Shown here: positions 2,559 to 56,046 of the stretch, piece after piece
Numbering within the stretch: the first letter of the stretch is position 1
How the letters are laid out: each line of letters begins with the position of its first letter
IMG/VR virus record: IMGVR_UViG_3300021492_000072
Origin: a virus
Length of the DNA stretch: 64,000 bases
Strand: one strand, 5' to 3'
The notes under the pieces: generated by a model
Told to the model about the DNA's origin: nothing
Database searches by the model: none
The model's input: the letters and a program-made list of their open reading frames with translations, nothing else
Program-made: the position numbers and the translations under genes

Positions 2559-2564
2559 TACTTT

Positions 2565-12392: not shown

Positions 12393-12406
12393 ATATTCAC
12401 CTCCTC

Positions 12407-13609: not shown

Positions 13610-13632
13610 ACAAAGCCTCCTAACAAGACATT

Positions 13633-13662
13633 AAAGGGCCCTAGATTAGCTAGGGCCCCTTT
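13633..13662 (-). terminator. GC-rich hairpin between the AAA and vWA genes (terminator/processing stem)
   Basis: AAAGGGCCCTAG-ATTAG-CTAGGGCCCCTTTT. Confidence 0.5.
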
Positions 13663-14640
13663 TTACCTCCCCTCCATCTTCTTTATCAGCCCGTCTGTGA
13701 TCTTTGATAGTGTGGGGTGATCAGCCAACTTATAGATATCACCGAAGTTGAACGTCATCTCCCCCATTACATAACACATTTGAGCTTCAGCGGTTAACCT
13801 CTTCGCAACAAAATCCAAAACCTTAACGTTCGGTTTGTGCCGAGACAAAGCAGCTGCAATCACAACCTGATCTTTTACTGACTCTGGCTTCGATTTTAAC
13901 AGGTCGTTTATACTCTTACCTAAAATTGGGTAACTATCAATAAATTTAGCACCTGCGTTGACTCCAACAACCCCCACCGCTATATTAAGGTCAAATCCAG
14001 CACTCAGAACTTTGTGTAGATTAAACCAACTCCTCGGTGAATGAAACTTTTGGGAAGTAGGAGGATCAGGATCATAAAGAAACTCAGGGTATGCAATCAA
14101 GAACGCGGAGATTTTGCTGCTTACATTTCGGCTCGTCGCGTACTGAATAAAATCCTCTACTGTAGGATTAAACTCAATAGCGATGTCGAACCTGTCCATC
14201 ACAGGCGCTAATAGCTCTGACGCACCCGCGCTATGCAGAGATAGATTCCCAGCCGCAACAAATCTCGTTTCGTCGGATGTCTCGTGTCCGTGTAGACGAT
14301 GACACAAGAGCAGCTCAAACAACGGGGATTGAAGTTGTTCAGAAGCGAGATGTATGTCATCGAAGAACAATACACGCTTCCCATCAGCTGGTAACGGCAG
14401 CCAATTAGGTCGAGTCCAGTACGTTGCATCATCCCTAATGTCAGGGAGACCTTTGGCCTCGCCTGGTTCCATCAAATACAGCCGGAGTTCGTCAATAGGC
14501 ATGCCGAGTTCTGCTGCTGCTTGAGCTGTGATTTCTGACTTACCACAACCTGGCGGGCCAGAAATCAACACAGACAGGTTGTGTTCCAACGCTGTCTTCA
14601 AACACTCTTTAAGCTGTTTTCCACCACTGATCTTATACAT
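13663..14640 (-). CDS. MoxR-like AAA+ ATPase
   Basis: Walker A GPPGCGKS, Walker B LFFDD, AAGN, DRF, SPRSW; adjacent to the vWA gene. Confidence 0.9.
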   Translation of the reverse strand: MYKISGGKQLKECLKTALEHNLSVLISGPPGCGKSEITAQAAAELGMPIDELRLYLMEPGEAKGLPDIRDDATYWTRPNWLPLPADGKRVLFFDDIHLASEQLQSPLFELLLCHRLHGHETSDETRFVAAGNLSLHSAGASELLAPVMDRFDIAIEFNPTVEDFIQYATSRNVSSKISAFLIAYPEFLYDPDPPTSQKFHSPRSWFNLHKVLSAGFDLNIAVGVVGVNAGAKFIDSYPILGKSINDLLKSKPESVKDQVVIAAALSRHKPNVKVLDFVAKRLTAEAQMCYVMGEMTFNFGDIYKLADHPTLSKITDGLIKKMEGR

Positions 14641-14725
14641 CTTTTCACCTCCTTCTCTTTTAATTTACCTCAAACAAATAAAACCGTACTAGTCTAAAGC
14701 ACGGTACCTTAGCCACTTATGACTA

Positions 14726-14899
14726 TCACCACTTCTTATAAGGCCAAGAGATCTTTTTATTAGGTTCAGAGTTACTTTTCAACTCTTCCAAATGTCGTGA
14801 TAAAGCCGAGTTTTCCAAAGCAAGCTTCTCAACCTCTAGTTTCAGTTTTTTCCTCTTTAACCTAAAATACGTAACCAACTCAGTCAGGAAACGCCACAT
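14726..14899 (-). CDS. Small coiled-coil protein (57 aa)
   Basis: Manual translation MWRFLTELVTYFRLKRKKLKLEVEKLALEN...; AAGGAG upstream. Confidence 0.5.
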   Translation of the reverse strand: MWRFLTELVTYFRLKRKKLKLEVEKLALENSALSRHLEELKSNSEPNKKISWPYKKW

Positions 14900-14994
14900 T
14901 CACAACACTCCTTGAAAAAATTTAAAATTTAAAAAAATAAAAAATTAGTACTCACATCTGAACTCACTACCTTACAGTTGTGCTCTACCAGGTA

Positions 14995-15687
14995 TTACAT
15001 CCCCCCACTCATCAGTGAAGGCCCCCCTCTACCTATAAAGTATCTCCAAAATAGCGCGACTCGACGACGAGCAAAGTAAGTTGGGATCCAAACAACCCCA
15101 GCTCCTATCGACGATACTGCCCTCTTTAGTCCTTCTATGTCAGTAATTCTGGTCACATTACCCGAACACGTAGAAGTACCTACTGTGGGGTTGACCCTCT
15201 GAATGACCACCTCATATCCAGCGCTTACATACATAGTAGTAGCTGAGACATTCCACACACCCTTAGAAGGATATAGGGTTATACTGCCTGTACCACCACG
15301 TTGGGACAAACAAGCACAACCTCTAACTTGCAGTGACCCATAACGTGTGTTAACCTCGGCCTGTCCTTCGACCTCAACTCGCCCGGTCCAAGAGCGGTAC
15401 ACGCTCCGCACTCTCGAACCTACTATTACCCTCACTGCTAATTGGCGGAAACGGTGCTGGCTCAACCCACTTGCTGATTCTGCTAAAGATAACCAATTCT
15501 GAACCTTGTGCGAGCGGTACAGCTCGGCAACATGACGCACAAGCAATTCTGGATTATCTAAGCTCCACTTATGAGTAACTTCACACTCAAAAGGGTGAGT
15601 GATCCGTAGTTTAGTAGGTCCTAGCCAGAAAGACAGGTGCTCACTTGATGCTACAACCCCTGTAACCTCCAACTTAAGAATCATCAC
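14995..15687 (-). CDS. Hypothetical protein
   Basis: 230-aa ORF on the coding strand. Confidence 0.65.
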   Translation of the reverse strand: MMILKLEVTGVVASSEHLSFWLGPTKLRITHPFECEVTHKWSLDNPELLVRHVAELYRSHKVQNWLSLAESASGLSQHRFRQLAVRVIVGSRVRSVYRSWTGRVEVEGQAEVNTRYGSLQVRGCACLSQRGGTGSITLYPSKGVWNVSATTMYVSAGYEVVIQRVNPTVGTSTCSGNVTRITDIEGLKRAVSSIGAGVVWIPTYFARRRVALFWRYFIGRGGPSLMSGGM

Positions 15688-15732
15688 TAATCAGCAATTC
15701 CTTTCATAAAGATCTCCTCTAGTAGGTGAAGG

Positions 15733-16179
15733 TCAGTCAGTCGTGGACCATACTCTCAAACCAACGTCCAAAAACTCCTTAATGCCATAGTCTCGCACAA
15801 CCCACTTCACTTTCCCCGCCGTTACCTGCTTTTGTATATGCAACAGTGCATGGTAAACAAGGGCTTCCCTAGTTTGATCTGACGATCTGTCCCAAAAAGG
15901 CTTCCACACTTCAACCACATAGTCGTACCCCGTCAGATATGACCACTTTCCTACCGTGCGTGAGCACTTTCCAAAAAACGAGCTCTTCTCAGCCTTGTAA
16001 AACAGGAACTTAATCACAGCCTCTTCTGCGTCACTCAACTGAAACTTCTTAATCAGTTTCTTCGCTAGCGCTTCCACTTCCGGGGCGTCCACGTACTTCT
16101 CGGCTTCCTTCGATGAAATTACCTCCTCAACAACCTCCTCTAATGTCATCTCTTTAGCCATTTTTTTCCTCCTTACCAA
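15733..16179 (-). CDS. Putative phage metallopeptidase-family protein with altered HExxH (HALLH)
   Basis: GKC..W..YDYVVEV...W...REALVYHALLHI pattern. Confidence 0.65.
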   Translation of the reverse strand: MVRRKKMAKEMTLEEVVEEVISSKEAEKYVDAPEVEALAKKLIKKFQLSDAEEAVIKFLFYKAEKSSFFGKCSRTVGKWSYLTGYDYVVEVWKPFWDRSSDQTREALVYHALLHIQKQVTAGKVKWVVRDYGIKEFLDVGLRVWSTTD

Positions 16180-17184: not shown

Positions 17185-17520
17185 CTACGCACAAAGACGT
17201 AAGAGCCTTCTCTCACCTTGCGAGAGGTTCAGCACATCTTCTAACCAACTCAACAGATCCTCTTTCGCGATAAATTCAGGGCAAGCAAGAGACACCAACG
17301 TTCCAACTCTATCAATCATAATCCGCGCACCGTACTTAAGCGCGCGCGTGGCAGCCCCAGGATATCTTCTCCTAAAGGCGCTCCAGTACCCCAAATGATT
17401 TGGGCTAACATGAATGTGATAACACCCATTAACACGTACTATAACCGCAGATTCCACAAGCATATGCGGCACTGCGGAGGACATTATGTAAGTCAGCATC
17501 CACACTGTGCCTTCTCGCAA
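17185..17520 (-). CDS. Array family member 1
   Basis: SAVP..CPEF..WLEDVLNLSQGERRLL. Confidence 0.85.
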   Translation of the reverse strand: MREGTVWMLTYIMSSAVPHMLVESAVIVRVNGCYHIHVSPNHLGYWSAFRRRYPGAATRALKYGARIMIDRVGTLVSLACPEFIAKEDLLSWLEDVLNLSQGERRLLRLCA

Positions 17521-17813
17521 ATGTATAGCAACCTTCGCTCTCCTTGTGACAAACCTAGTGTGTCCGCCAACCAGTCTAACAATCCTTTTTGTGTAGAAAA
17601 CTCAGGACAAGTGCCACTCATTTTTGCACCACGCTCTTGCGCCAATCTCACACTATTAGAGTACCTCCTCTTAAACTGTGCCCAATATTCACTATGGTCA
17701 GGGGTGACTAAAATAAAGTACCACCGCCCCTTAACCAAGTCAGTGATCACCGCATAGCTAACTCGCGCGTTAGGTACAGCATGTGATAGTATGTGAGTTA
17801 ACATTTGCATCAA
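17493..17813 (-). CDS. Array family member 2
   Basis: HAVP..CPEF..GERRLL. Confidence 0.85.
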   Translation of the reverse strand: MMQMLTHILSHAVPNARVSYAVITDLVKGRWYFILVTPDHSEYWAQFKRRYSNSVRLAQERGAKMSGTCPEFSTQKGLLDWLADTLGLSQGERRLLYICEKAQCGC

Positions 17814-18145
17814 AGTAAACTAAGCTCCAACAGTTTTCTCTCACCCTGTGACAAACTTAGTGTGTCCGCTAACCAACCCAGCAAATTCTCTTTTGAATGA
17901 AACACCGGGCACTGTCGGCGCCCTAACTCAAGATCAAGTTCTTCAACACCACGTGCGCAAGCTAATCGTTTATAGTGAGGATACTTTTGTCTAAAACATC
18001 CCCAAAAGTCCCTGTGGTGGGGCTCAACTACTATATAATAGTCACTTATGCCCCACTTAGGCAAATCCCAATGTTCTATCCTCGCCGATTCAACATACAC
18101 TTCTGGTACAGCTCGTGCTAATAATTGAGTCAAAAACCGAGACAA
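17810..18145 (-). CDS. Array family member 3
   Basis: RAVP..CPVF..GERKLL. Confidence 0.85.
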   Translation of the reverse strand: MSRFLTQLLARAVPEVYVESARIEHWDLPKWGISDYYIVVEPHHRDFWGCFRQKYPHYKRLACARGVEELDLELGRRQCPVFHSKENLLGWLADTLSLSQGERKLLELSLL

Positions 18146-18465
18146 CCTCCATACCCCTCACACAGAAGTAGAAGTTTTCTTTCACCCTGAGTCAATTTAA
18201 GCACATCAGATAGCCACTCAAACAAATCCCCCAAATCAGCAAATTCTGGGCAAAAGCCACGAGCTATTGATTCCTTTGTTGCTCCCTTTGAGAACGCTAT
18301 TTTCGCCCCATACGGATAAGTTTCCCTAAACCGCTCCCAATACCCGTAGTGATTCGGTCCAACTAAAATCCAATACAACCCTGACGATGCTCTAACCACT
18401 GTTGCTGACTCAACACGTACTTTTGGTACAGCATCCGCTAGTAATTGAGTCAAAACTTGCGGCAC
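18130..18465 (-). CDS. Array family member 4
   Basis: Family scaffold. Confidence 0.85.
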   Translation of the reverse strand: MPQVLTQLLADAVPKVRVESATVVRASSGLYWILVGPNHYGYWERFRETYPYGAKIAFSKGATKESIARGFCPEFADLGDLFEWLSDVLKLTQGERKLLLLCEGYGGCLGF

Positions 18466-18791
18466 CTTTTACACCTCTTACATAGAAGTAATAAAAGATT
18501 TCTTTCACCTTGAGGTAACTCGAGCACCTCAAACAACCAATTAAGCAAATTTTCCAAATCATCAAATTCCGGGCAAAAGCCGCGTAGCCCTAGTGAGTCT
18601 TTCCGTACATGATATGTAAACGCAACTTGCTTCCAGTGAGGATAAATCTCCCCAAACCGCTCCCAATACTTCTCATGATCCGGGTCAACTAAAATCCAGT
18701 ACACATTCGGTAACGCTCTAATCACCGTCGCTGACTTAACGTACACATCTGGCACAGCGTTCGCTAGTAAGCGAGTTAAAAACCGGGGCAT
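18450..18791 (-). CDS. Array family member 5 (start MPRFL)
   Basis: Family scaffold. Confidence 0.85.
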   Translation of the reverse strand: MPRFLTRLLANAVPDVYVKSATVIRALPNVYWILVDPDHEKYWERFGEIYPHWKQVAFTYHVRKDSLGLRGFCPEFDDLENLLNWLFEVLELPQGERNLLLLLCKRCKRCRKF

Positions 18792-19126
18792 CCTCTGCGC
18801 CCTACACATAAAAGCAGTAGTTTTCTTTCACCGTAATCCAGCCCAAGCACATCAAACAACCAGTTAAGTAAATTTTCCAAAACATCAAACTCTGGACAAA
18901 AGCCACACGAGTTTAACGAGTCCTTCCGTGCATGATATGTAAATGCAACTCGTTTCCAGTGAGGATAAATCTCTTTAAACTGCCACCAGTACCTATAATG
19001 ATTTGGCTCAACGCTAATCCAGTACGACCACAACCATGGTGCTCTGAATGTTTTGACCAACGACGCTGACTCAACACGCACATCAGGCACGACACGCGCT
19101 AATAACGAGGTCAATATCTGCGACAT
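18776..19126 (-). CDS. Array family member 6
   Basis: Family scaffold. Confidence 0.85.
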   Translation of the reverse strand: MSQILTSLLARVVPDVRVESASLVKTFRAPWLWSYWISVEPNHYRYWWQFKEIYPHWKRVAFTYHARKDSLNSCGFCPEFDVLENLLNWLFDVLGLDYGERKLLLLCVGRRGCPGF

Positions 19127-19461
19127 TCTCTAACCTTCTCATATAGAAGTAAAAGATTTCTTTCACCTTGAGTCAACTCGAGTACCTCAAACAACCAATT
19201 AAGCAAATTTTCCAAATCAGCAAATTCTGGGCAAAAACCTTCGATCATCAGCGATTTATCCGTCGCCTTATATGTGCGCGCTATCTGTACACAACTTGGA
19301 AAGGTCTTCCTAAACCGTCTCCAGTACTCATAATGACGCGGATCAACCCGAATCCAGCACAAACCCACTGACGATCTAACCAACGCCGCTGATTCAACTT
19401 TTACATTGGGTACAGCTCGCTCTAGCAACCAAGCTAAACATTCTAGAGTGACCTTTGACAT
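19111..19461 (-). CDS. Array family member 7
   Basis: Family scaffold. Confidence 0.85.
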   Translation of the reverse strand: MSKVTLECLAWLLERAVPNVKVESAALVRSSVGLCWIRVDPRHYEYWRRFRKTFPSCVQIARTYKATDKSLMIEGFCPEFADLENLLNWLFEVLELTQGERNLLLLYEKVRECRRY

Positions 19462-19787
19462 GACTGTGCCTCAACACTAAGTTGTATAAACTTCCGTTCA
19501 CCCTGTGATAAACCTAGCGTATCCGCCAACCAATTAATTAAATCTTCTCTCACACGAAATACAGGACAGGATCCAAAAGGTACTAGTGAAGATTCCAATG
19601 CTTTATATTCACACGCGACTCGTTTCCAGTGTGGGTAGGTCCTCTTAAAGCGCTCCCAATAATAGCCATGATTTGGCTCAACCCAAATCCAATAATGGCC
19701 CGTAAACGTGCGAACCACCGCCGAAGTTGGCTCAACTCGTACGTCAGGCACGGCGCGGCGTAATATTGTTGTTAACACTCGAGTCAT
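19443..19787 (-). CDS. Array family member 8 (start MTRVL)
   Basis: Family scaffold. Confidence 0.85.
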   Translation of the reverse strand: MTRVLTTILRRAVPDVRVEPTSAVVRTFTGHYWIWVEPNHGYYWERFKRTYPHWKRVACEYKALESSLVPFGSCPVFRVREDLINWLADTLGLSQGERKFIQLSVEAQSCQRSL

Positions 19788-19789
19788 GA

Positions 19790-20122
19790 TCACACCCCTG
19801 CAGAAAGACGTAGAAGTTTGCGCTCTCCCTGTGTCAGACCCAGTGTGTCTGCTAACCAACCTATCAAGTCCTCTTTTGAAAGAAACTCTGGACAGAGCCA
19901 ACCAGTCATAAGTGAGTACCCAACAGCTCCATATTCATATGCTACCCGGCTAAAGTGAGGGTACATCTCTTGGAAACGAGTCCAGTACACATCATGATAC
20001 GGTTCCACACGGAGCCAATACCTACTCCCTAGGGGCCCAAAATCCCGCTTAACCACTTCCGCCGAGCCAACGTAAACAGTAGGTACAGCGTGAGACAATA
20101 CAAGAGCGACAAACTGCATCAT
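19790..20122 (-). CDS. Array family member 9 (start MMQFV)
   Basis: Family scaffold. Confidence 0.85.
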   Translation of the reverse strand: MMQFVALVLSHAVPTVYVGSAEVVKRDFGPLGSRYWLRVEPYHDVYWTRFQEMYPHFSRVAYEYGAVGYSLMTGWLCPEFLSKEDLIGWLADTLGLTQGERKLLRLSAGV

Positions 20123-20439
20123 TTGACTCCTTTGTACAAGCGTAGGAAGTCTCTCTCCCCCTGTGTTAGGTTCAGTACATCCATCACCCAACCTAACAGA
20201 TCCTCCTGTGTTGGAAACTTAGGACAACAATGCCCTAAAGTAAACCGCTCCGCTCCGTGTTTAAGAGCCAAATGCCTATAATGAGGATACTTTATCCGAA
20301 AGTAACCCCAAAAGTCTACATGATGTGGTTCAACATAAATAAAGTATCCCTCCTTTGATGACCACCGCTTCACCTCTACCGACGCTACATACACCTCAGG
20401 TACGGCGCGAGAAAGTAAAAATGTTAAAAGTTGTGTCAT
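20119..20439 (-). CDS. Array family member 10 (start MTQLL)
   Basis: Family scaffold. Confidence 0.85.
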   Translation of the reverse strand: MTQLLTFLLSRAVPEVYVASVEVKRWSSKEGYFIYVEPHHVDFWGYFRIKYPHYRHLALKHGAERFTLGHCCPKFPTQEDLLGWVMDVLNLTQGERDFLRLYKGVK

Positions 20440-20794
20440 CCGTTGTGCCTCCCCACAGCCGTAGAAGGTTGCGCTCACTATGGGTCAACTCAAGCACATC
20501 AAACAACCAGTTCATCAAGTCTCGCGCTGTAGTAAACTCTGGGCAGAAGCAATGCAAATCAGGTATTGTTCTATGCTTATACGCAATCTGTTTCCAGTTT
20601 GGGTGAGCCTCTTTGAAACACTTCCAGTACGTGTAGTGATCTGGATCAACCCGAATCCAGTATGTGGTTCGACCTGGCACAACCACCTGGATCCTGTGTT
20701 CAGTTTGATCTGTCCCAACAATTTCTGCGGAGACAACTCGTACTCCACTCACAGCACGAGACAAAATATATGTTAAAAACCTAGACCGTTTCAT
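20396..20794 (-). CDS. Array family member 11
   Basis: Family scaffold with loop-1 insertion. Confidence 0.85.
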   Translation of the reverse strand: MKRSRFLTYILSRAVSGVRVVSAEIVGTDQTEHRIQVVVPGRTTYWIRVDPDHYTYWKCFKEAHPNWKQIAYKHRTIPDLHCFCPEFTTARDLMNWLFDVLELTHSERNLLRLWGGTTDDTTFNIFTFSRRT

Positions 20795-21105
20795 AATCCT
20801 ACATCAAGAAGCAAGAGTTTACGCTCACCATCAGTCAAACCTAATATCTCTGATAGCCAATCAGTCAACGCGTCCCGCGAGCAAAACTCTGGGCAAGCAA
20901 CCTCATGGACTCTCGCGTTACGCTTCCGTGCCAAACGTGTACAATCAGGATACCTCTCTCTGAACCGCTTCCAATAACCAGATTGATCGGGTGTAACGTA
21001 AATGTAAAACCATGTTCCACTACGGTATCGAACGCAAGATATCTCCACTGAGTCAATACACGCGCCAGGCACAGCGTGGGAGAGTATAGACATTAACAAA
21101 CTCAT
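20791..21105 (-). CDS. Array family member 12
   Basis: Family scaffold. Confidence 0.85.
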   Translation of the reverse strand: MSLLMSILSHAVPGACIDSVEISCVRYRSGTWFYIYVTPDQSGYWKRFRERYPDCTRLARKRNARVHEVACPEFCSRDALTDWLSEILGLTDGERKLLLLDVGL

Positions 21106-21431
21106 ACCCCTCCTTCGCGAAGTTGCAAAAGATTTCGCTCCCCTTTTGACACATTTAGCACATCAAACAACCAATCTAACAAGTTCTCTAAAGAAGTAAA
21201 CTCAGGGCAGTTCCCAGAAGGTATTAACGAAGCCCCTAACGCTTCATACTTACACACAACCCGCTTCCACTGTGGATAGACTCTTTTAAAGCGTTCCCAA
21301 TAATAACCATGACTCGGCTTAACTAAAAGCCAGTATCGGCCTCTCACTGACTCAACAACTTCCACAGAGTCAACTCGCACTTCACTCACAGCTTGAGATA
21401 AGATATATGCTAAAAACCCAGACCGTTTCAT
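21102..21431 (-). CDS. Array family member 13
   Basis: Family scaffold. Confidence 0.85.
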   Translation of the reverse strand: MKRSGFLAYILSQAVSEVRVDSVEVVESVRGRYWLLVKPSHGYYWERFKRVYPQWKRVVCKYEALGASLIPSGNCPEFTSLENLLDWLFDVLNVSKGERNLLQLREGGV

Positions 21432-21748
21432 AATCCTACATCAAGAAGTAAGAGTTTACGCTCACCACGCGTCAACCCCAGCACCTTAGACAACCACTCC
21501 ACTAAACCTCTTCGCGTGGAAGACGTGGGCCAGCAAACTTCAGCGGCCGATAGTGGTACTACTCTATATTTGCGAACCATCTGCTCCCAATAAGGGTAAG
21601 CTCTTTCAAAACGCTCCCAATAACTGTAGTGATCTGGCTCAACCCAAATCCAATACAGATCCCCTACTTTAGTCAACGTTGCAGAATCAATCGGAACCCC
21701 ACTTACAGCTCGAGTCAAAATATATGTTAAAAACTTAAACCGTCCCAT
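21428..21748 (-). CDS. Array family member 14
   Basis: Family scaffold; CPEF replaced by WPTS. Confidence 0.85.
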   Translation of the reverse strand: MGRFKFLTYILTRAVSGVPIDSATLTKVGDLYWIWVEPDHYSYWERFERAYPYWEQMVRKYRVVPLSAAEVCWPTSSTRRGLVEWLSKVLGLTRGERKLLLLDVGL

Positions 21749-22062
21749 AGTCCTACATCGAGGAGTAAGAGTTTACATTCACCTTGTGTCAACTTCAACG
21801 TATCAGACAACCACCCCACTAAAGCCTTTTGTGTAGGAGACGCTGGCCATCGAATTTCGTCTACCGTTAGAATTGTTAACTCATATTTATAAGCCACTTG
21901 CTCCCAGTGGGGGTAAGTTCTTTCAAACCAATCCCAATATGCATAATGGCTAGGAGCGACTAGGAACCAGTACAAATCTCCTACTCCTTTGATCAACGTC
22001 ACTGAATCGACCTGGATATTAGGTACAGCGCGAGTCATTATCAGGGTTAACAGTTGAGTCAT
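21727..22062 (-). CDS. Array family member 15 (start MTQLL)
   Basis: Family scaffold; WPAS variant. Confidence 0.85.
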   Translation of the reverse strand: MTQLLTLIMTRAVPNIQVDSVTLIKGVGDLYWFLVAPSHYAYWDWFERTYPHWEQVAYKYELTILTVDEIRWPASPTQKALVGWLSDTLKLTQGECKLLLLDVGLWDGLSF

Positions 22063-22406
22063 CCTACTATATTTTCCATGAGGTACAAAAGGTTTCTTTC
22101 TCCCGAGGGTAGGTTTAACACATCTGATAGCCAACTCAACAGCCCTTTCTGAGTAGAAAACACTGGGCACCGGATTCCTGTTACCGATGATAACACCCCA
22201 TACTTACGAGCCAACCGCTTCCAGTGAGGATAAGACTTCTTAAAACGCGTCCAGAACTCATAATGATTTGGGGTAACTAGCAGCCAACACGGACCCCCCA
22301 CCGATCCAACCACCGCCACCGAATCGACCCGCACATCCGGCACAGCTCGCGACAATATAGGCTTCGCCAGTGAAATTTTCCGCAAGTAAGTTAACGACCT
22401 TGACAT
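22059..22406 (-). CDS. Array family member 16
   Basis: Family scaffold. Confidence 0.85.
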   Translation of the reverse strand: MSRSLTYLRKISLAKPILSRAVPDVRVDSVAVVGSVGGPCWLLVTPNHYEFWTRFKKSYPHWKRLARKYGVLSSVTGIRCPVFSTQKGLLSWLSDVLNLPSGERNLLYLMENIVG

Positions 22407-22762
22407 CCTATTTTACCCCCCACAAGGTGTAGGAGCCTTCTCTCTCCTGGGGTCAAGTTCAACACATCTGATAGCCAGTCCAACAACTTCTTCTGTGTAG
22501 GAAACACTGGGCAACAGCCTCTCGTTACTGACTGCGACAAAACTCCATGTCTATAAGCCACTTGCCTCCAGTGAGGGTAAGTGCTTTCAAAACGATCCCA
22601 GTACTTATAATGACTGGGAGCGACCAGAAACCAGTACTGATCCCCTAGTGACTTAACTATCACCACTGAGTCAACCCGCGCATCCGGCACAGCACGTGAC
22701 AACAAAGACTTTATTAACATAACTTCCGTAACTTTCCAGAACCGAGTCAACAACCGCGACAT
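22391..22762 (-). CDS. Array family member 17 (start MSRLL)
   Basis: Family scaffold. Confidence 0.85.
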   Translation of the reverse strand: MSRLLTRFWKVTEVMLIKSLLSRAVPDARVDSVVIVKSLGDQYWFLVAPSHYKYWDRFESTYPHWRQVAYRHGVLSQSVTRGCCPVFPTQKKLLDWLSDVLNLTPGERRLLHLVGGKIGCQGR

Positions 22763-23148
22763 CTTATTTTGCCCTCCATGAGGTACAAAAGGTTTCTTTC
22801 TCCTGGCGACAAACTCAACACATCTGATAACCAATCAATTAACATACCCCGTGAAGAAAATTCTGGGCACAGTTTACGAGTCGTAACCGAGTAAGTTGCC
22901 GACCTATATTTATATGCAACCTGCTTCCAATGAGGATAGATTTCCCTGAAACGTCTCCAATAAATATAGGGTTCTGGCCTAACATCAAATGAATATGCAA
23001 CTCCCAACTTAACAGGATATGGTGTCATCTTTTTAAAATCGAAAGACCACTGTAAGGGCACAAGCGACTCAACTACCTCTACTTTCCAAACACGTACACC
23101 CGGCACGGCACGCGAAAGTAAAGAGGTCAAGAAACGCGACATAGTCAT
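22747..23148 (-). CDS. Array family member 18
   Basis: Family scaffold with long loop-1 insertion. Confidence 0.85.
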   Translation of the reverse strand: MTMSRFLTSLLSRAVPGVRVWKVEVVESLVPLQWSFDFKKMTPYPVKLGVAYSFDVRPEPYIYWRRFREIYPHWKQVAYKYRSATYSVTTRKLCPEFSSRGMLIDWLSDVLSLSPGERNLLYLMEGKIRCRGC

Positions 23149-23200
23149 ACTCTCACAAAGTCGTAGCAGCTCTCTGTAACCTTACCATAGCGACGCCAAG

Positions 23201-23539
23201 CTAAGAACGTAGGACGTGATATCGTCTAACCTTATTTAAGTAAAGACGCAAGAAAGTTTCCTCCCCCTTCGTCAAACTCAACACATCGATTACCCATTCA
23301 ATCAAGTCCTCCTCTGTGTTAAACTCCGGGCAAGGTAAGTTAAGCTCAACCACATTATGACGCAATGCAACTTGATCCCAATCTGGGTACACCTCTTTGA
23401 ACAAAAACCAGTACGCTGTGTGGTCTGGGTTTACTTGTATGTAATACGAATCCTTTGTAGACCAACGGACAACTCTCGCCAATGTCACACATGCTCCAGA
23501 CACAGCTCGACTTAGTATTGTTGTTAACACTCGAGACAC
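23201..23539 (-). CDS. Array family member 19
   Basis: Family scaffold. Confidence 0.85.
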   Translation of the reverse strand: MSRVLTTILSRAVSGACVTLARVVRWSTKDSYYIQVNPDHTAYWFLFKEVYPDWDQVALRHNVVELNLPCPEFNTEEDLIEWVIDVLSLTKGEETFLRLYLNKVRRYHVLRS

Positions 23540-23569
23540 GGTCGCACCCCAACACCGGAGCGAAAGTTA

Positions 23570-23929
23570 TCACTTCATTATACAAAGATGAAGTAAATTT
23601 CTTTCCCCCTGTGACAAACCCAGTACGTCAACCAACCAATTTATCAAATCTCGCCGGGTAGGAAACTCAGGACAGCACTGTGAATTGATGGACTGTTCCT
23701 CTACTCCATATCTCAAAGCAACCCGCTTATACTGAGGATATCTTCTATGAAAACGTAGCCAGTACTCCACATGGTCAGGATATACAGTTAAAAAGTATGC
23801 TTCTATCCCATCTTCAACCCAGCATGAAACTTTTGCCCTTGTGACACAAACTTCTGGTACAGCTTGTGCCATAACAGCAGTAAGTAACTTTACTGTGTTC
23901 GCCTCACACATTTTTACGTTCTCATACAA
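23570..23929 (-). CDS. Array family member 20
   Basis: Family scaffold. Confidence 0.85.
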   Translation of the reverse strand: MYENVKMCEANTVKLLTAVMAQAVPEVCVTRAKVSCWVEDGIEAYFLTVYPDHVEYWLRFHRRYPQYKRVALRYGVEEQSINSQCCPEFPTRRDLINWLVDVLGLSQGERNLLHLCIMK

Positions 23930-24225
23930 AGTCGTAGTAGCTTTCTCTCTCCTCGTGACAAGCTCAATACGTCAACTAACCAATTCACCAAGTCTGCTTT
24001 GTTAAAGAATTTAGGGCAACACCCCGAAATATTGTGCTCACTCACCCCATACCTCAAAGCAATTCGTTTATAATGTGGATACTTCTTATGAAACCGTAAC
24101 CAATACTTCACGTGACTGGGGTAAACAATTATAAAGTACGCCTTAGCCAAGGGGGCGTATGTAATTTCTGCTCTCTCAACAAACACTTCTGGTACAGCTC
24201 GGGCTAGTACACGTGTTAGTGCCAA
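23914..24225 (-). CDS. Array family member 21
   Basis: Family scaffold. Confidence 0.85.
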   Translation of the reverse strand: MALTRVLARAVPEVFVERAEITYAPLAKAYFIIVYPSHVKYWLRFHKKYPHYKRIALRYGVSEHNISGCCPKFFNKADLVNWLVDVLSLSRGERKLLRLCMRT

Positions 24226-24228
24226 CGC

Positions 24229-24555
24229 TTACCTCCTCAACGCGAGACGCAACAAAGATCTTTCACCCCCTGTTACGCTCACTACATCAATCAGCCAGTT
24301 AATTAAGTCCTCCTTCGTGTTAAACTCTGGACAGGGGGTGAGAAGCTTAGCCGCGTTATACTTCATTGCCGCTTGCTTCCAATATGGGTAAGTTTTCTTG
24401 AACGTCATCCAATATTCCATATGGACCGGATATACATTTATGAAGTACAGCCCCTCTGAGGGCCAGCGTGTAATCCTCGCCGCTGTAACACGTACATCTG
24501 GAGTAGCTCGATCTAGTATGTGGGCCAGCATCTTGGATACCTTATCCATTATCAT
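24229..24555 (-). CDS. Array family member 22
   Basis: Family scaffold. Confidence 0.85.
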   Translation of the reverse strand: MIMDKVSKMLAHILDRATPDVRVTAARITRWPSEGLYFINVYPVHMEYWMTFKKTYPYWKQAAMKYNAAKLLTPCPEFNTKEDLINWLIDVVSVTGGERSLLRLALRR

Positions 24556-24869
24556 CTCTCATAGATTCGTAAAAGCTTTTGTACTCCTTTCGACAAACCC
24601 ACAGTATCTGACAGCCATTTGATAAGATCTTCACGCCTAAAAAACTCAGGACACGTTCTATCAAATTCCTGTTTAACCTCCTTTAAAACATACTTATTGA
24701 CTGCTCGACTCCACTGTGGATAAATCTTCTTAAACCAATACCAATATAGAATATGATTAGGAGTAATACGGATCCAATACAATCCCCTTGGTTCTCTAAC
24801 TATCTCTGCGGACTCAACATACATGCTTGGTACGGCCCGCTCCATAACAACAGTAAGTAAAGTCGACAC
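24552..24869 (-). CDS. Array family member 23
   Basis: Family scaffold. Confidence 0.85.
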   Translation of the reverse strand: MSTLLTVVMERAVPSMYVESAEIVREPRGLYWIRITPNHILYWYWFKKIYPQWSRAVNKYVLKEVKQEFDRTCPEFFRREDLIKWLSDTVGLSKGVQKLLRIYER

Positions 24870-24872
24870 AAC

Positions 24873-25256
24873 CTACACCTCACCGCATAGACGCAGAAGC
24901 TTTCTTTCCCCTGGGGATAAGCTTAACACATCTGATAACCAACTAACCAGCGCGTCTTGTGAAGGAAACTCCGGGCACAACCTGCAAACCACAACTGAAT
25001 ACACTGTTGCTCCATATTTAAACGCTAATTGTTCCCAACTAGGAAAGGTCTCCCTGAACCGCCTCCAGTACACATAAGGTCTTGGTCTAACGTCTAAAGT
25101 ATATTTATACTCAGCCTCAATTACACGAAACGCTCCTGTCTCTAAATCCAGACCCCATTGTGGGTTCGTGGGTGATTCAACTACCTGTACTGTCTCAACA
25201 CATACATCAGGTACAGCGTGAGACAAAATGAAAGTTAATAAGTGCGCCACGATCAA
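24873..25256 (-). CDS. Array family member 24
   Basis: Family scaffold; loop-1 insertion like member 18. Confidence 0.85.
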   Translation of the reverse strand: MIVAHLLTFILSHAVPDVCVETVQVVESPTNPQWGLDLETGAFRVIEAEYKYTLDVRPRPYVYWRRFRETFPSWEQLAFKYGATVYSVVVCRLCPEFPSQDALVSWLSDVLSLSPGERKLLRLCGEV

Positions 25257-25552
25257 AACCCCACACTAATCCGTAAAAGATTATTTTCCCCTTGTGTCAG
25301 ATCTAACACATCTGACAACCATTCGATCACCTTAGCTCGTGAAGAAAATATAGGAGTGAGCTTAAAACCCAAAAGACCGTGTCTAAAGCCCACTCGCTTC
25401 CAGTGCGGGTAAAGTTCCATGAACCGCTCCCAGTATCTTTCATGACTCGGTTCAACCTGGATCCAGTACATCTTTGCTGTAAACCATTGTTCAACTCTTG
25501 CCGACTCAACCCGTACATCAGGTACAGCACGTGACAGTATAGTAGCTAGCAC
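25253..25552 (-). CDS. Array family member 25
   Basis: Family scaffold. Confidence 0.85.
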   Translation of the reverse strand: MLATILSRAVPDVRVESARVEQWFTAKMYWIQVEPSHERYWERFMELYPHWKRVGFRHGLLGFKLTPIFSSRAKVIEWLSDVLDLTQGENNLLRISVGF

Positions 25553-25881
25553 TTATACCCCGTTTCAGTAAAAAGATGTAATAAGTTCCTCTCTCCCTGT
25601 GGTAAATTTAACGTATCTATTAACCAACCTAATAGTCCTTTTAGTGTAGGAAACTCAGGGCAGAGGCACTCTAAAGTGTGCTTCTTTGCCCCATACCTAA
25701 GAGCTATGTATTTATAGTGAGGATACCTCACATGAAAGCGCTCCCAGTATCTTTTATGATCTGGTTCAACAAACACAACGTAAACCTCATCTGACGTGTC
25801 CGGCTCATCTGACCACCACTTCACCTCAACCGATTCAACTCGCACTTCCGGGACAGCGCGTGACAATATAGCAGTTAACAC
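25546..25881 (-). CDS. Array family member 26
   Basis: Family scaffold. Confidence 0.85.
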   Translation of the reverse strand: MLTAILSRAVPEVRVESVEVKWWSDEPDTSDEVYVVFVEPDHKRYWERFHVRYPHYKYIALRYGAKKHTLECLCPEFPTLKGLLGWLIDTLNLPQGERNLLHLFTETGYKC

Positions 25882-26204
25882 TTACACTCCTGTTTCATCA
25901 AAAGTTGTAATAGATTTCTTTCTCCTCGCGGCAGGATCAGTACATCAAACAGCCAGTTCATTAAGTTTTCGGCGGAATCAAATTCAGGGCAAGCAGCCTC
26001 GATTGCCTTCGCTCCGTACTTCAAAGCAACTCGCTCCCAATGAGGATACCGCTTCTTAAACTGTAGCCAATAGCCACTATGATCAGGGTCTACGAAGATG
26101 AAATAGAGACGAACATCCCACCACGGAACATGGGACACCCATGCTGATTCGACTCGCGCACCTGGCACGGCACGTGACATCATGAAAGTTAATAATTGTG
26201 ACAT
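25875..26204 (-). CDS. Array family member 27
   Basis: Family scaffold. Confidence 0.85.
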   Translation of the reverse strand: MSQLLTFMMSRAVPGARVESAWVSHVPWWDVRLYFIFVDPDHSGYWLQFKKRYPHWERVALKYGAKAIEAACPEFDSAENLMNWLFDVLILPRGERNLLQLLMKQECKC

Positions 26205-26554
26205 GACTGTGTCCTCATATAGAAACGTAAGAAGTCACGCTTTTTCTGTGTCGCGCACGCTATGCACGCCAACCATCCAAACAAATCCCTCTTCAAAAGA
26301 AACTCAGGACAAAGACACGTGAGGCCTTCCGACCTAGTTAGCGCACCATATCTTTTACACGCCAGAAAAATAAATTCAGGATACCTATCCTGGAACCGAG
26401 ACCAGTACTTGAAGTGCTCAGGAGAAACCTGAAGGTAAAGCCGACTTCCATGGCCGGTTCGTATCTCTACCGAATCAACACATACGTCTGGAACCAACCT
26501 CTGTAACGCTGACCGAATCAATGAATCGCTCCTAATAGCATTAACATATGACAT
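26189..26554 (-). CDS. Array family member 28
   Basis: QRLVPD variant. Confidence 0.8.
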   Translation of the reverse strand: MSYVNAIRSDSLIRSALQRLVPDVCVDSVEIRTGHGSRLYLQVSPEHFKYWSRFQDRYPEFIFLACKRYGALTRSEGLTCLCPEFLLKRDLFGWLACIACATQKKRDFLRFYMRTQSCHNY

Positions 26555-26877
26555 CTCACCACATTACTACAAAAACGCAATAGCTTCCTCTCTCCTTGTG
26601 TTAAACCTAATACATCTGACAACCAATTCAACAAGTCCGATGTTGTGGTAAATTCTGGGCAAGCAACATCATCAACCCTCGCGCCACGGCTTCGCGCTAA
26701 GTAGATGCTATCAGGGTACCGTTCTTTAAACCGACCCCAGTACTCCGCGTGATCTGGAGTAACCGCAATGAAGTACTTTTTACTCTTTGTTGATGTCGCA
26801 ACCGACGCGCGACTGACAGATACATCGGATACCGCGCGTGATAGTATGTCAGTTAATAATTGCATTAAATCATCCAA
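26518..26877 (-). CDS. Array family member 29
   Basis: Family scaffold. Confidence 0.85.
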   Translation of the reverse strand: MDDLMQLLTDILSRAVSDVSVSRASVATSTKSKKYFIAVTPDHAEYWGRFKERYPDSIYLARSRGARVDDVACPEFTTTSDLLNWLSDVLGLTQGERKLLRFCSNVVRCHMLMLLGAIH

Positions 26878-27182
26878 AGTCGTAATAAGTTTTTTTCACC
26901 CTGGGTTAAACGAAATATATCCGCCAACCAACTGAATAAGTCCTCCTTCGAAGCAAACACAGGACAAAGGTACAGACGACCATCTTTTGCCCTCCGTGAA
27001 GCGTTATACCTTCTACACGCTAAAGTTATAAGCTCACGGTGTTCGTGCCGGAATTGAACCCAGTACGCTTGATGATCCGGTTGAACAAATAGGTAGTACC
27101 CCTGATCACGTGCATTTACCACACGTACTGACTCAACACATACATCCGGAATTAACCTCTGAAACAATGACTGCGTCATCAT
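26865..27182 (-). CDS. Array family member 30 (start MMTQS)
   Basis: QRLIPD variant. Confidence 0.8.
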   Translation of the reverse strand: MMTQSLFQRLIPDVCVESVRVVNARDQGYYLFVQPDHQAYWVQFRHEHRELITLACRRYNASRRAKDGRLYLCPVFASKEDLFSWLADIFRLTQGEKNLLRLWMI

Positions 27183-27475
27183 AGCATTAAATGCAGCAAA
27201 TTTCTCTCTCCGTGTGTCAAGCACAAAGTATCCGACAGCCAATTAATCAGGGCCTCTCTTGCACAAAACTCCGGACAAGCAGTGAGTCTAATTTCCGCGC
27301 CGTGCTTTAACGCCAGACGCAAACAATGAGGGTACACCTCTTTGAACCGCCTCCAATACCTGTCATGATTTGGGCTAACTCGGATCCAGCACACTGCTCT
27401 GGCTGGTGATTTAACTATTTCCGCTGACTCAACTTGAACGTCCGGTACAGCCCGACTTAACACCACCGCTAACAT
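27179..27475 (-). CDS. Array family member 31
   Basis: Family scaffold. Confidence 0.85.
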   Translation of the reverse strand: MLAVVLSRAVPDVQVESAEIVKSPARAVCWIRVSPNHDRYWRRFKEVYPHCLRLALKHGAEIRLTACPEFCAREALINWLSDTLCLTHGERNLLHLML

Positions 27476-27482
27476 TGTAACA

Positions 27483-27782
27483 CTACTTTATAGTAAGGTG
27501 TAAAAGATTACGCTCACCTGGTGTCAAATCCAACGTGTCCGACAACCAATCAATTAAGTCCTTCTTTGTATGAAACTCTGGGCAAGCAGTGTGAAAAACT
27601 CTTGCGCCACGATCTTGTGCAAGGCCTAAACTGTAAGAGTACCTTTTTCTGAACCGTCCCCAGTACCTAAAATGGTTAGGAGTAATGTGTATATAAAACC
27701 TGTTATCAACACGAGCTATCTCTACTAACTCGACACGAGCATCAGGCACAGCACGTGCCAGTAAACGAGCTAACAATTCCAA
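27483..27782 (-). CDS. Array family member 32 (first transcribed)
   Basis: Family scaffold. Confidence 0.85.
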   Translation of the reverse strand: MELLARLLARAVPDARVELVEIARVDNRFYIHITPNHFRYWGRFRKRYSYSLGLAQDRGARVFHTACPEFHTKKDLIDWLSDTLDLTPGERNLLHLTIK

Positions 27783-28252
27783 TTAGAAAAGTCCTCCTCA
27801 CTAAGATATAAGTCCGTACCAACCTTAACCGCGGTCACGTCTCTAAAGAAGCATCCATGATTCGTTATATGTACAAATGTAACTGGTTCCACGCCGGAAG
27901 GTTCTATTGACAAGTGATAGTGATCGTCACAATCCACATAACATCCACGTAAATCATCAAGAGCGTAACCTAGTTTATCAACTACATGGTTATAACCACA
28001 CTCTTTAAGATCTTTATACTCCTCAATACGCCGTAACTTCACCCAGCGTTTTTGTGGGTTAACAACCTGACCATCAATCGGTTCTACATCAAAAGTCAGG
28101 CTACCGCAGACATCAGGACCGAAATAGTCCTGAAATATCTGGTACAATTCCTCATAGAGATCTTCAACGGACTGAATAGGGGTCCTAATAGCCCCCTTAA
28201 CCGCGATTCTGTAGCACTTCATAACCTTTCCTCCGGTCCCATTAATCACCAA
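27770..28252 (-). CDS. Hypothetical protein; C-terminal half resembles 39478..39768
   Basis: KLRRI..DL..YV.....VGTDLYLSEE vs KLREI..DLKGKYV..VGNELYIAEE. Confidence 0.7.
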   Translation of the reverse strand: MVINGTGGKVMKCYRIAVKGAIRTPIQSVEDLYEELYQIFQDYFGPDVCGSLTFDVEPIDGQVVNPQKRWVKLRRIEEYKDLKECGYNHVVDKLGYALDDLRGCYVDCDDHYHLSIEPSGVEPVTFVHITNHGCFFRDVTAVKVGTDLYLSEEDFSNWNC

Positions 28253-32200: not shown

Positions 32201-32518
32201 CTACTTCTCAAATATGTGTCCTAGATTGAGATATAAGAGCTTTCTCTCCCCTTGTGTTAAACCCAACACCTCTGATAACCAACCCATTAACAAAAACCGT
32301 GAAGGAAATGTGGGAGTAGACCTGAGATCCAAATGACCATACTTAAAACCCACTCGCTTCCAGTGTGGGTAAAGTTCCATAAACCGCTCCCAATACTTTT
32401 CATGATCTGGCCTGATCTGGATCCAACACCACGCCCTGATCGTCGATTCAACTATTTCCACTGATTCAACCTGCACATCCGGCACCGCACGTGACAGTAT
32501 AGAAGTTAACACTTGCAT
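32201..32518 (-). CDS. Orphan array-family member (start MQVLT)
   Basis: SRAVPDV..YWERF..GERKLL. Confidence 0.85.
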   Translation of the reverse strand: MQVLTSILSRAVPDVQVESVEIVESTIRAWCWIQIRPDHEKYWERFMELYPHWKRVGFKYGHLDLRSTPTFPSRFLLMGWLSEVLGLTQGERKLLYLNLGHIFEK

Positions 32519-32540
32519 CAAACCAGACTTCCAAGAAGGT

Positions 32541-32753
32541 TCACTTTTTAAACATCTTAATTTTAACTCGTAACCCTTTATCATCTACTTCAACTTCTTC
32601 AATTCTGCCAACCGGCCGACCTTTTTGTGACACTGTCATCCCTTTCAAACTCACCTTTAAATCTTCAAGGACTTCCTTTGCAAGGATATAGTTTCCATGT
32701 CTTCTTGTTATTACATAGCCTTCTATGGTCAAATGTTCCTTACCATCCTTCAT
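32541..32753 (-). CDS. Small protein resembling the N-terminal part of HK97 prohead proteases
   Basis: IEGY....RPVGRIEEVEVDDKGLRV resembles RPIGRVVSSKVDDKGLFI of 57941..59026. Confidence 0.5.
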   Translation of the reverse strand: MKDGKEHLTIEGYVITRRHGNYILAKEVLEDLKVSLKGMTVSQKGRPVGRIEEVEVDDKGLRVKIKMFKK

Positions 32754-54014: not shown

Positions 54015-54029
54015 ATAAATCTCCTGAAA

Positions 54030-56005: not shown

Positions 56006-56046
56006 TGTACTTGACACTTCAAGCGGTGAGTACTAGTTAACCAGTA

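What the first reader, a model, noticed from the sequence alone, without database searches (positions are those of the whole stretch)
17185..27782. A 32-gene tandem repertoire of one unknown small-protein family (36 copies in the window)
Seen: 32 consecutive, abutting or overlapping minus-strand ORFs share the scaffold L..IL.RAVP.V.V.SA - loop1 - Y.I.V.P.H..YW.RF...YP.W...A..Y - loop2 - CPEF.....L..WL.DVL.L..GER.LL. No member is obviously frameshifted, although pairwise divergence is high. Established: phages rarely keep more than a few paralogs; long diversified arrays are typical of arms-race loci (poly-immunity arrays, poxvirus accordions). Inference: a selected repertoire of specificity variants, such as inhibitors, decoys or sponges against host defence proteins, or immunity proteins against competing elements. 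I do not recognise the family.
Basis: partly seen in the sequence, partly recalled or inferred. Interest (0 to 1): 0.92.

Follow-up and report, generated by a model that had tools for sequence, protein, structure and literature searches.

The report
32-gene orphan protein array, vent phage
A large uncultured phage from hydrothermal-vent sediments spends about 7% of its DNA on 32 back-to-back genes for different versions of one small protein with no known relative or fold; it is probably a panel of binding proteins used against its host, and it joins a few similar, still unexplained gene arrays in other large phages.

Summary
There are 32 consecutive minus-strand genes (17185-27782), one isolated copy (32201-32584) and three divergent copies (2199-3301), 36 in all, every one full-length. 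Two other assemblies and contigs from four further metagenomes carry the same array, so it is not a misassembly.

The family has no Pfam, PHROG, NCBIfam, PADLOC or PDB-sequence match. Only 100 of 1.84 billion cluster representatives match its profile. Two confident AlphaFold models (pLDDT 94 and 87) match no solved or predicted fold (best Z 4.1).

Paralogues are old (median 41% identity), yet each is conserved between strains. ω is about 0.22-0.25 along the whole protein, loops included. Strains differ by loss or gain of whole copies and by occasional frameshifts.

Only hydrophobic or structural residues are invariant, and pI ranges from 4.9 to 10.1. This points to a non-enzymatic scaffold. 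Tight or overlapping junctions suggest one coupled operon in the non-structural arm.

My best reading (about 0.4) is a panel of individually maintained binder proteins for host interaction or counter-defence. The function is untested.

Arrays of more than 30 genes are already published for phages G and 121Q, and this scan noted several others on other DNA. I therefore class it as a new member of a known kind.

The parts
17185..27782 (-). Tandem array of 32 paralogous genes (98-131 aa from the conserved start). The stop-to-stop period averages 332 nt. Genes are co-oriented and mostly overlap or lie <=7 nt apart.
32201..32584 (-). Isolated 33rd close member (127 aa with an N-terminal extension). 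It is sister to array copy 25253-25552; both lack the Cys of CPEF. It is 100% identical in G002 and 92% identical in G001.
2199..3301 (-). Three adjacent divergent members (119, 126 and 119 aa, 25-32% identical to the array reference). This subfamily is present as 1-3 copies in all relatives examined.
24552..24869 (-). Array copy 10 is intact here but has the longest branch in the tree and GVQ in place of GER. It carries a 1-nt deletion or frameshift in G002 and run X7, internal deletions in runs X3 and X17, and survives only as a remnant in G001. It looks like a copy in decay.
22747..23148 (-). Long-loop-1 variant. It forms a clade with 24873-25256. Its ~17-residue insertion is modelled as an extra beta-hairpin extending the sheet.
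27770..28252 (-). ORFan gene immediately upstream. Its stop overlaps the start of the first array gene, so the array continues an upstream transcription unit.
12407..16179 (-). Downstream context in the non-structural arm: a VWA/DUF2201 protein (12407-13609), a MoxR-like AAA+ ATPase (13663-14640), a 230-aa ORFan (14995-15687) and a 148-aa ORFan (15733-16179). In the relative L029 a PF18894 PhageMetallopep gene occupies the 148-aa position, but the homology was not checked.
47463..59957 (.). Virion module that identifies the element as a tailed phage: TerL 47463-48866(-), portal-MuF fusion 49689-54014(-), prohead protease 57941-59026(+), major head protein 59019-59957(+).

Best explanation
The array is one long, translationally coupled operon in the non-structural (leftward) arm of a tailed phage of at least 150 kb from hydrothermal-vent sediment. 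It encodes about 32 different versions of a small (~105 aa), non-enzymatic, single-domain protein. The predicted fold is an N-terminal helix, a beta-hairpin and five helices, and it has no detectable relative. A hydrophobic or aromatic core is fixed (P, W, F, P, W, plus the RAVP, YP.W, CPEF and GER.LL.L motifs). The hairpin tip (loop 1), the loop before CPEF (loop 2) and the surface charge differ from copy to copy. Each copy keeps its own version under purifying selection. I infer that the products form a panel of intracellular binding proteins, each with its own target or target variant, most probably host defence or other host proteins met across different host strains. The panel changes between phage strains mainly by recombinational loss or gain of whole genes. 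Shown: the anatomy, the selection regime, strain polymorphism, orphan status and the lack of any catalytic signature. Inferred: binding function, the targets, early or middle co-expression.
For: Operon signs: 26 of 31 junctions overlap or are <=7 nt apart (8 are 4-nt overlaps, 5 are 16-nt overlaps); SD-like purine runs precede 19 of 32 starts; there is no excess of promoter- or terminator-like sites (17 vs 27 expected, 14 vs 12). Scaffold-plus-loops design: only P, W, F, P, W are invariant, and no polar residue is invariant. Insertions fall after HMM column 30 and columns 69-72. The AF2 model has pLDDT 94.3, the long loop-1 insertion folds as an extra hairpin, and loop 2 is low-confidence and probably flexible. 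pI runs from 4.9 to 10.1 and net charge from -4 to +11. Individual maintenance: paralogue identity is 23-62% (median 41%) with terminal branches around 0.65 substitutions per site. Orthologues are 84-100% identical, with omega 0.22-0.25 overall and 0.17-0.33 in every region. Accessory, strain-variable character: G002 has 34 copies, two of them extra divergent paralogues and one frameshifted. G001 lacks orthologues of six window copies and has three broken ones. Contigs from other samples show whole-copy insertions and multi-copy deletions or replacements. Restricted distribution: 100 hits among 1.84e9 representatives; 1 of 61 and 1 of 401 genomes; none in five related IMG/VR phages, including a complete 137-kb one. 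The array sits among ORFans between small upstream genes and the DNA-metabolism genes.
Against: No target, partner or phenotype is known. No known anti-defence or defence family matches (PADLOC and Pfam). Nothing indicates positive selection in the loops between orthologues, which a fast sequence-level arms race would predict. Omega is about twice that of other phage genes (0.21-0.24 vs 0.12-0.13), so some relaxation of constraint is possible. Expression is unproven. Both structure models rest on alignments made only of family members, mostly paralogues from this one phage, and have no experimental support. The host is unknown, so no defence repertoire can be compared.
Confidence: 0.4

Rival explanations
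1. The proteins are a repertoire of nucleic-acid-binding proteins, either specific transcription factors or DNA/RNA-coating proteins. This is what Iyer et al. proposed for the ~35-copy zinc-ribbon expansion of Bacillus phage G.
For: Language-model features put the reference member nearest to Cro/C1-type HTH clusters (score 0.90, 139 shared features). The C-terminal 'L..WL.DVLgLtqGER.LL.L' resembles the start of an HTH. 22 of 36 members have pI >=9.0. Precedent: PMC7824862.
Against: The ESM score and shared-feature count fall below the tool's own reliability marks. No HTH or other DNA-binding Pfam model matches any of the 8 members scanned at E<=1. No HTH or winged-helix structure scores above background (best Z 4.1 and 3.6). 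Several members are neutral or acidic (pI 4.9-6.8). No basic residue is invariant.
Confidence: 0.15
2. The array is mostly genome filler. Tandem duplications were kept because a larger capsid must be filled (the ratchet suggested by Hua et al. 2017), with little copy-specific function.
For: Hua et al. interpret the >30-gene arrays of phages G and 121Q as tandem duplication that enlarged the genome (PMC5646251). Copies are dispensable between strains. Omega is higher than in other genes. This phage has several other paralogue families.
Against: All 32 copies are intact despite divergence to ~41% identity, which implies long retention under selection. Omega is ~0.2 in every region of the protein. 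Orthologues persist across three diverged assemblies. Filler DNA would accumulate stops and frameshifts at a much higher rate than the 1-3 broken copies seen per relative.
Confidence: 0.1
3. The copies are immunity or exclusion proteins against toxins or competing mobile elements, a viral counterpart of bacterial poly-immunity loci, rather than inhibitors of host defence.
For: The layout matches: homogeneous tandem arrays of small, diverged, non-enzymatic proteins whose content varies between strains. The analogy with SUKH/Imm poly-immunity loci is from my own knowledge and scan note e1-5363711.
Against: No toxin gene or toxin-like domain was seen near the array; the neighbours are ORFans. No immunity family in Pfam matched the 8 members scanned, and none in NCBIfam matched the 36. 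The family was not found in any cellular genome searched apart from the MAG that carries the phage contigs.
Confidence: 0.1
4. The array is a store of silent cassettes that are copied by gene conversion into an expression site (the isolated copy at 32201-32584), as in antigenic-variation systems.
For: One copy lies apart, 4.4 kb upstream, with a longer N-terminus. The array gains and loses units by recombination.
Against: Every array copy has its own start codon, most with an SD-like site. Every copy is constrained over its full length. The isolated copy is 100% identical in G002 and 92% in G001, so it is not hypervariable. Paralogues show no mosaic near-identity; the maximum is 62%.
Confidence: 0.02

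Closest known systems
Tandem arrays of more than 30 similar small genes in jumbo phages G and 121Q (Hua et al. 2017, PMC5646251), and the ~35-copy zinc-ribbon expansion of Bacillus phage G (Iyer et al. 2021, PMC7824862)
   Same: A single lineage-specific family of small proteins is expanded to 30 or more co-oriented tandem copies in a large tailed-phage genome. The function is unknown. Both papers were read here.
   Different: The family is different: it lacks the 4-Cys pattern of a zinc ribbon, and no zinc-ribbon model in Pfam matched the 8 members scanned. The genome is smaller (about 150 kb, below the 200-kb jumbo limit). The setting is a thermal vent. The copies here are highly diverged (median 41%) rather than 'very similar'.
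Multigene families of large eukaryotic DNA viruses (ASFV MGF110/360/505; poxvirus host-range and Bcl-2-like families). From my own knowledge, not tested here.
   Same: Tandem paralogues of small non-enzymatic proteins, with copy content varying between isolates through whole-gene gain and loss, each copy individually conserved.
   Different: This is a prokaryotic virus. There is no sequence or fold relationship. The array is internal rather than at the genome ends. In those viruses the role in modulating host immunity is demonstrated; here it is only inferred.
Homogeneous poly-immunity loci of bacteria (tandem SUKH/Imm paralogues; Zhang et al. 2012). From my own knowledge and scan note e1-5363711.
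   Same: Arrays of diverged paralogues of one small binding scaffold, each presumed to neutralise one variant of a partner.
   Different: No matching profile. The array is carried by a phage, not by a cell. No associated toxin genes were seen.
Other orphan small-paralogue arrays noted by this scan in uncultured jumbo phages (e1-275091, e1-307566, e1-5374369, e1-5389879, e1-5363711)
   Same: The same architecture (25-48 translationally coupled small paralogues), orphan status and strain-level gain and loss.
   Different: By their reported motifs those are different, unrelated families, though I did not compare sequences. They are AI notes that I did not check, apart from the two papers they cite.

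Membership tests
Lineage-specific tandem paralogue expansion of a large phage (phage G / 121Q type) | 30 or more co-oriented, adjacent copies of one small-protein family in a tailed-phage genome | tested here: met
   32 adjacent copies. TerL, portal, protease and MCP identified. The contig carrying G002 is 151,812 nt.
Lineage-specific tandem paralogue expansion of a large phage (phage G / 121Q type) | The family is confined to one phage lineage | tested here: met
   100 hits in 1.84e9 representatives. None in 5 related IMG/VR phages. 1 of 401 genomes.
Phage G zinc-ribbon expansion | Zinc-ribbon fold with two CxxC-type knuckles | tested here: not met
   No invariant Cys or His. The only common Cys (in CPEF) is missing in 7 of 36 copies. 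The model is an alpha/beta domain.
Cro/C1-type HTH (Pfam HTH_3 / HTH_31 / HTH_26) | A match to the Pfam profile at or above the gathering score | tested here: not met
   No HTH family appears even at E<=1 for the 8 members scanned. The only hint is an ESM feature score of 0.90 with 139 shared features.
Cro/C1-type HTH (Pfam HTH_3 / HTH_31 / HTH_26) | Five-helix HTH fold | tested here: inconclusive
   No HTH structure scores above background in Foldseek or VIA searches. Weak matches cannot exclude a distant relation.
Known anti-phage defence or candidate defence proteins (PADLOC-DB) | A profile match | tested here: not met
   0 of 36 members match at E<=0.1.
Bacterial immunity-protein families (SUKH/SMI1_KNR4 and Imm families in Pfam) | A profile match | tested here: not met
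   No such family matches in Pfam for the 8 members scanned (E<=1) or in NCBIfam for the 36 members (E<=0.1).
Arms-race repertoire under diversifying selection | dN/dS above 1, or clearly raised, in the variable loops between orthologues | tested here: not met
   Omega is 0.18-0.29 for the loop-1 region and 0.17-0.29 for the loop-2 region, the same as the scaffold, in 79 orthologue pairs. The pooled NG86 method cannot detect single-site selection.
Arms-race repertoire (accessory gene content) | Presence or absence polymorphism of copies among close strains | tested here: met

The most novel reading that the evidence does not exclude
The family is a previously unseen protein fold that nature uses as a loop-diversified binder scaffold. 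Under this reading a phage carries an inherited library of about 30 or more individually conserved specificities, and edits it by whole-gene gain and loss, to neutralise the varied defence or surface-independent host factors of its hydrothermal host population. It would be a prokaryotic-virus counterpart of the ASFV and poxvirus multigene families, and a natural monobody-like scaffold from a thermophilic setting.
Probability: 0.3. Interest if true: 0.8.

Novelty: new member of a known kind. Interest (0 to 1): 0.6.

Why it matters
Large tandem arrays of small orphan paralogues keep turning up in big phage genomes, and none has an established function. This one has several features that make it a good test case.

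- The fold prediction is very confident, and it appears to have no precedent.
- The fixed scaffold and the two variable loops are clearly separated.
- Every copy is individually conserved.
- Natural strains from many vent samples differ by whole copies.

Together these make the question "what does each copy bind?" directly testable. If the binder-panel reading is right, the array would show how a phage copes with host diversity without changing its sequence quickly. It would also supply a compact scaffold, possibly thermostable given the vent setting, for protein engineering.

Tried and rejected
- **Homodimer prediction**: no verdict (score 0.01). It counts neither for nor against oligomerisation.
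- **RNA evidence:** no RNA holder is listed among the 24 runs that hold the array, so expression is untested.
- **Profile-based locus search:** The search for related loci with the family alignment failed because no stretch was conserved enough. A single member found nothing in IMG/VR by pattern.
- **GenBank phages:** no DNA or protein match.
- **Contexts of distant homologues:** P0048, P0062, P0071, P0072 and P0086 all lie on contigs of 0.5-1.4 kb. They show adjacent members at best and no informative neighbours.
- **Fused relative P0093** (222 aa, in a related phage): its N-terminal domain has no Pfam match and no counterpart in the window.
- **The two long repeat proteins among the representative hits** (P0063, P0083) matched only short repeated stretches of the profile and carry unrelated Pfam domains, so I set them aside as spurious.
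- **Host assignment by spacer-like matches:** 79 genomes of G001's order gave nothing. No tRNAs or Rfam families were found. TerL homologues carry no organism names.
- **Archaeal host:** I first read the element as an archaeal virus, because G001 is an archaeal MAG and one relative is binned as Bathyarchaeota. I withdrew this after finding family-A DNA polymerase, bacterial-type RecA and a gp32-like SSB on the same contig.
- **Synteny with a complete 137-kb relative:** it failed because the relative lacks the MoxR anchor gene.
- **Rejected outright:** cassette/expression-site model, misassembly and non-coding repeat (see rivals and the observation check).
Full report
**1. Observation**

The ORF list and a six-frame hmmsearch with an HMM built from the members show 32 consecutive minus-strand genes from 17185 to 27782. 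All match the profile almost end to end (E 1e-34 to 1e-43). A 33rd close member lies at 32201-32584. Three adjacent divergent members lie at 2199-3301 (E 1e-16 to 1e-18). No other frame in the window matches.

Alignment A1 has only five invariant columns: P, W, F, P, W. Near-invariant positions are V, P, F, L, L, G, L. The consensus is ..LT..LSRAVP.V.V.SA – loop 1 – Y.I.V.P.H..YW.RF...YP.W...A..YGA – loop 2 – CPEF....DL..WL.DVL.LT.GER.LL.L. Insertions cluster after HMM column 30 (68 inserted residues over the window copies) and after columns 69-72 (19 residues).

**2. It is real DNA and a real coding array**

- A 131-kb IMG/VR record (G002) is about 97% identical to the window and co-linear with it (window = G002 22606-87028). 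Its array has 34 units.
- A more distant assembly (G001) carries the array split over two contig ends.
- 24 runs hold part of the array, mostly labelled hydrothermal vent, marine or sediment metagenome. Fourteen hold at least half of its k-mers.
- Contigs from four non-source runs bridge several copies.
- In the minus-strand frames, pooled orthologue dN/dS is 0.21 (window vs G002) and 0.24 (window vs G001). Other genes of the same genomes give 0.12 and 0.13.
- A stricter reciprocal-best-hit set of 79 pairs gives 0.22-0.25.

**3. The element**

- The window encodes TerL (47463-48866), a portal-MuF fusion (49689-54014), an S78 prohead protease (57941-59026) and an HK97-type major head protein (59019-59957).
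- G002 adds a helicase, an SMC/Rad50-like ATPase, an Mre11-like phosphoesterase, NrdD, RNase HII and QueD carrying a LAGLIDADG insertion.
- IMG/VR calls G002 a provirus. However, the 13.7 kb beyond its left boundary on the 151,812-nt parent contig (L053) is still viral. It encodes a UDG-PolA fusion, a gp32-like SSB, a bacterial-type RecA (PF00154, 146 bits), QueC and FolE2.
- The genome is therefore at least about 150 kb, and the array takes up about 7% of it.

*Host.* G001 is an MCR-negative archaeal MAG, and a relative's contig is binned as Bathyarchaeota. A 1.5-kb fragment is binned as Ca. Desulfofervidus. PolA, bacterial RecA, gp32, SD-led genes and frequent GTG/TTG starts favour a bacterial host, so I treat the archaeal bins as probable mis-binning. 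G001's two largest contigs are the phage. The host is unresolved.

**4. Orphan status**

- No member scanned matches Pfam or PHROGs (8 members each), and none of the 36 matches NCBIfam or PADLOC.
- The family profile finds nothing among PDB sequences.
- Against 1.84 billion cluster representatives the profile finds 100 proteins (18 below 1e-30). Apart from two spurious repeat proteins, these are small unnamed metagenomic proteins with the same motifs.
- The word-indexed search adds only 'hypothetical protein' names.
- The family occurs in 1 of 61 relatives and 1 of 401 phylum-level genomes around G001.
- It is absent from five IMG/VR phages found with a TerL about 59% identical to the window's, including a CheckV-complete 137-kb genome.
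- Short contigs of other relatives show two to five adjacent members, so arrays are a trait of the lineage.

**5. Structure**

- AlphaFold2 with the family alignment gives a very confident model of 23570-23929 (pLDDT 94.3, pTM 0.84). The order of elements is: N-terminal helix, a two-stranded hairpin whose tip is loop 1, then five helices, with loop 2 and CPEF between helices 4 and 5.
- The long-loop variant 22747-23148 (pLDDT 86.6) places its insertion as a second small hairpin that extends the sheet. Its loop 2 is low-confidence.
- Neither model matches anything. Foldseek against PDB gives a best E of 0.24. VIA-align against 48,161 representatives gives a best Z of 4.1 and 3.6, below the usual background for unmatched models. 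ESM Atlas gives TM <=0.45. BFVD gives a best E of 0.015 at TM 0.38.
- ESM features lean to Cro/C1 HTH clusters, but below the tool's reliability marks.
- Caveat: both alignments consist only of family members, mostly paralogues from this one phage.

**6. Evolution**

- Among the 32 copies, amino-acid identity is 23-62% (median 41%).
- Neighbours are only slightly more alike than distant copies (0.45 at lag 1 against 0.40).
- There are local clades (copies 26-29, 16-19, 12-13) and also non-adjacent sister pairs (9+15, 7+23). The duplications are therefore old and there is no recent homogenisation.
- Orthologues are 84-100% identical between assemblies.
- Omega is about 0.2 in every segment, including the loop regions (0.17-0.29). 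Each copy thus preserves its own loops.
- Strain differences are structural. Both extra copies in G002 are divergent paralogues (<=61% to any other copy). One has an 84% orthologue in G001, so the window lineage lost it.
- G001 lacks orthologues of six window copies.
- G002 has one frameshifted copy, and G001 has two frameshifted copies and one remnant.
- Run X7 shows the same two insertions as G002 and the same 1-nt deletion in copy 10. Run X17 shows a 2,367-nt deletion and several one-copy deletions or replacements.

**7. Expression logic**

- Using the start nearest the conserved N-terminus, 26 of 31 junctions overlap or are <=7 nt apart (8 overlap by 4 nt, 5 by 16 nt).
- 19 of 32 starts have an SD-like purine run.
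- Promoter- and terminator-like sites are not enriched.
- The first array gene overlaps the stop of the upstream ORFan.
- The whole 1-44 kb arm is minus-strand, with a strand switch near 44.2 kb.
- I infer one long transcript with translational coupling, lying between small upstream ORFans and the DNA-metabolism genes. No RNA data exist.

**8. Interpretation**

No polar residue is invariant. Surface charge varies widely (pI 4.9-10.1). Two loops tolerate indels on a rigid core. Each copy is individually constrained. Copy content varies between strains. These facts fit a panel of non-enzymatic binding proteins engaged in virus-host interaction better than they fit an enzyme, a virion component or filler DNA.

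The data do not show a sequence-level arms race, and they do not reveal any target. The rivals are:

| Rival | Confidence |
|---|---|
| Nucleic-acid-binding repertoire | 0.15 |
| Filler from a capsid-size ratchet | 0.1 |
| Immunity/exclusion panel | 0.1 |
| Silent cassettes | 0.02 |

**9. Comparison with what is known**

- Hua et al. [quoted passage not shown]
- Iyer et al. 2021 describe an 'unprecedented' ~35-copy zinc-ribbon expansion in phage G (PMC7824862).
- This scan's notes list at least eight comparable arrays in other large phages. I checked only the two papers.
- The kind is therefore known, while the family, the apparent fold and the vent setting are new.

Verdict: new member of a known kind, interest 0.6.

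Noticed in passing
window 3491-4177, 4254-4742, 7113-7775, 30169-30534, 32764-33357, 34391-35020, 36246-36887 (all minus): A second, dispersed paralogue family of seven ORFan proteins (121-228 aa) links up by BLASTP at E<1e-4. Smaller families also exist: 406-762 / 28242-28559 / 28596-28937; 9726-10262 / 10199-10621 / 33354-33719; 10660-11232 / 33750-34376. Gene duplication is widespread in this phage.
   Followed up: partly
L053 (contig Ga0209410_1000002, 151,812 nt), 1-13760: The DNA beyond G002's 'provirus' boundary is still phage: a UDG-PolA fusion, a gp32-like SSB, bacterial-type RecA, QueC, FolE2 and a DHH protein. The IMG/VR provirus call and boundary look wrong, and the gene set points to a bacterial host.
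   Followed up: partly
G001 contigs C1 (29,892 nt) and C2 (26,494 nt): The two largest contigs of this archaeal MAG (540 contigs) are the two halves of a relative of this phage, broken inside the array. This is likely mis-binning, and it shows that such arrays fragment short-read assemblies.
   Followed up: partly
L053:1201-1926 and 11393-12211; L015:18449-19771 and 10043-10681: The phage carries a 7-deazaguanine (queuosine/archaeosine-type) pathway: QueC, FolE2, QueD interrupted by a LAGLIDADG endonuclease domain, and a radical-SAM protein that may be QueE (not confirmed). This suggests DNA modification as an anti-restriction measure. Intein-like insertions also appear in other genes of relatives.
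   Followed up: no
window 49689-54014 (-) and 54683-56005 (+): A 1441-aa portal-MuF fusion shares a zincin-like region with the divergently transcribed 440-aa protein (BLASTP link; weak ATLF/Peptidase_M90 hits).
   Followed up: no
window 17185-20478: Nine successive stop-to-stop periods (308-347 nt) are all congruent to 2 mod 3, so the reading frame rotates by one at each gene. The duplication unit evidently included the gene overlap.
   Followed up: no
L029:9965-10666 (P0093, 222 aa) in a related phage: This is a fused form: an unknown ~155-aa N-terminal domain joined to the C-terminal two-thirds of the family domain (from YW..F to the end). It has no counterpart at the syntenic position of the window.
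   Followed up: partly
window 12407-16179 (-): A VWA/DUF2201 protein and a MoxR-like AAA+ ATPase lie just downstream of the array, followed by two ORFans. In the relative L029 these two genes (AAA+ and VWA) carry intein-sized insertions, and a PF18894 PhageMetallopep gene sits at the position of the 148-aa ORFan.
   Followed up: no
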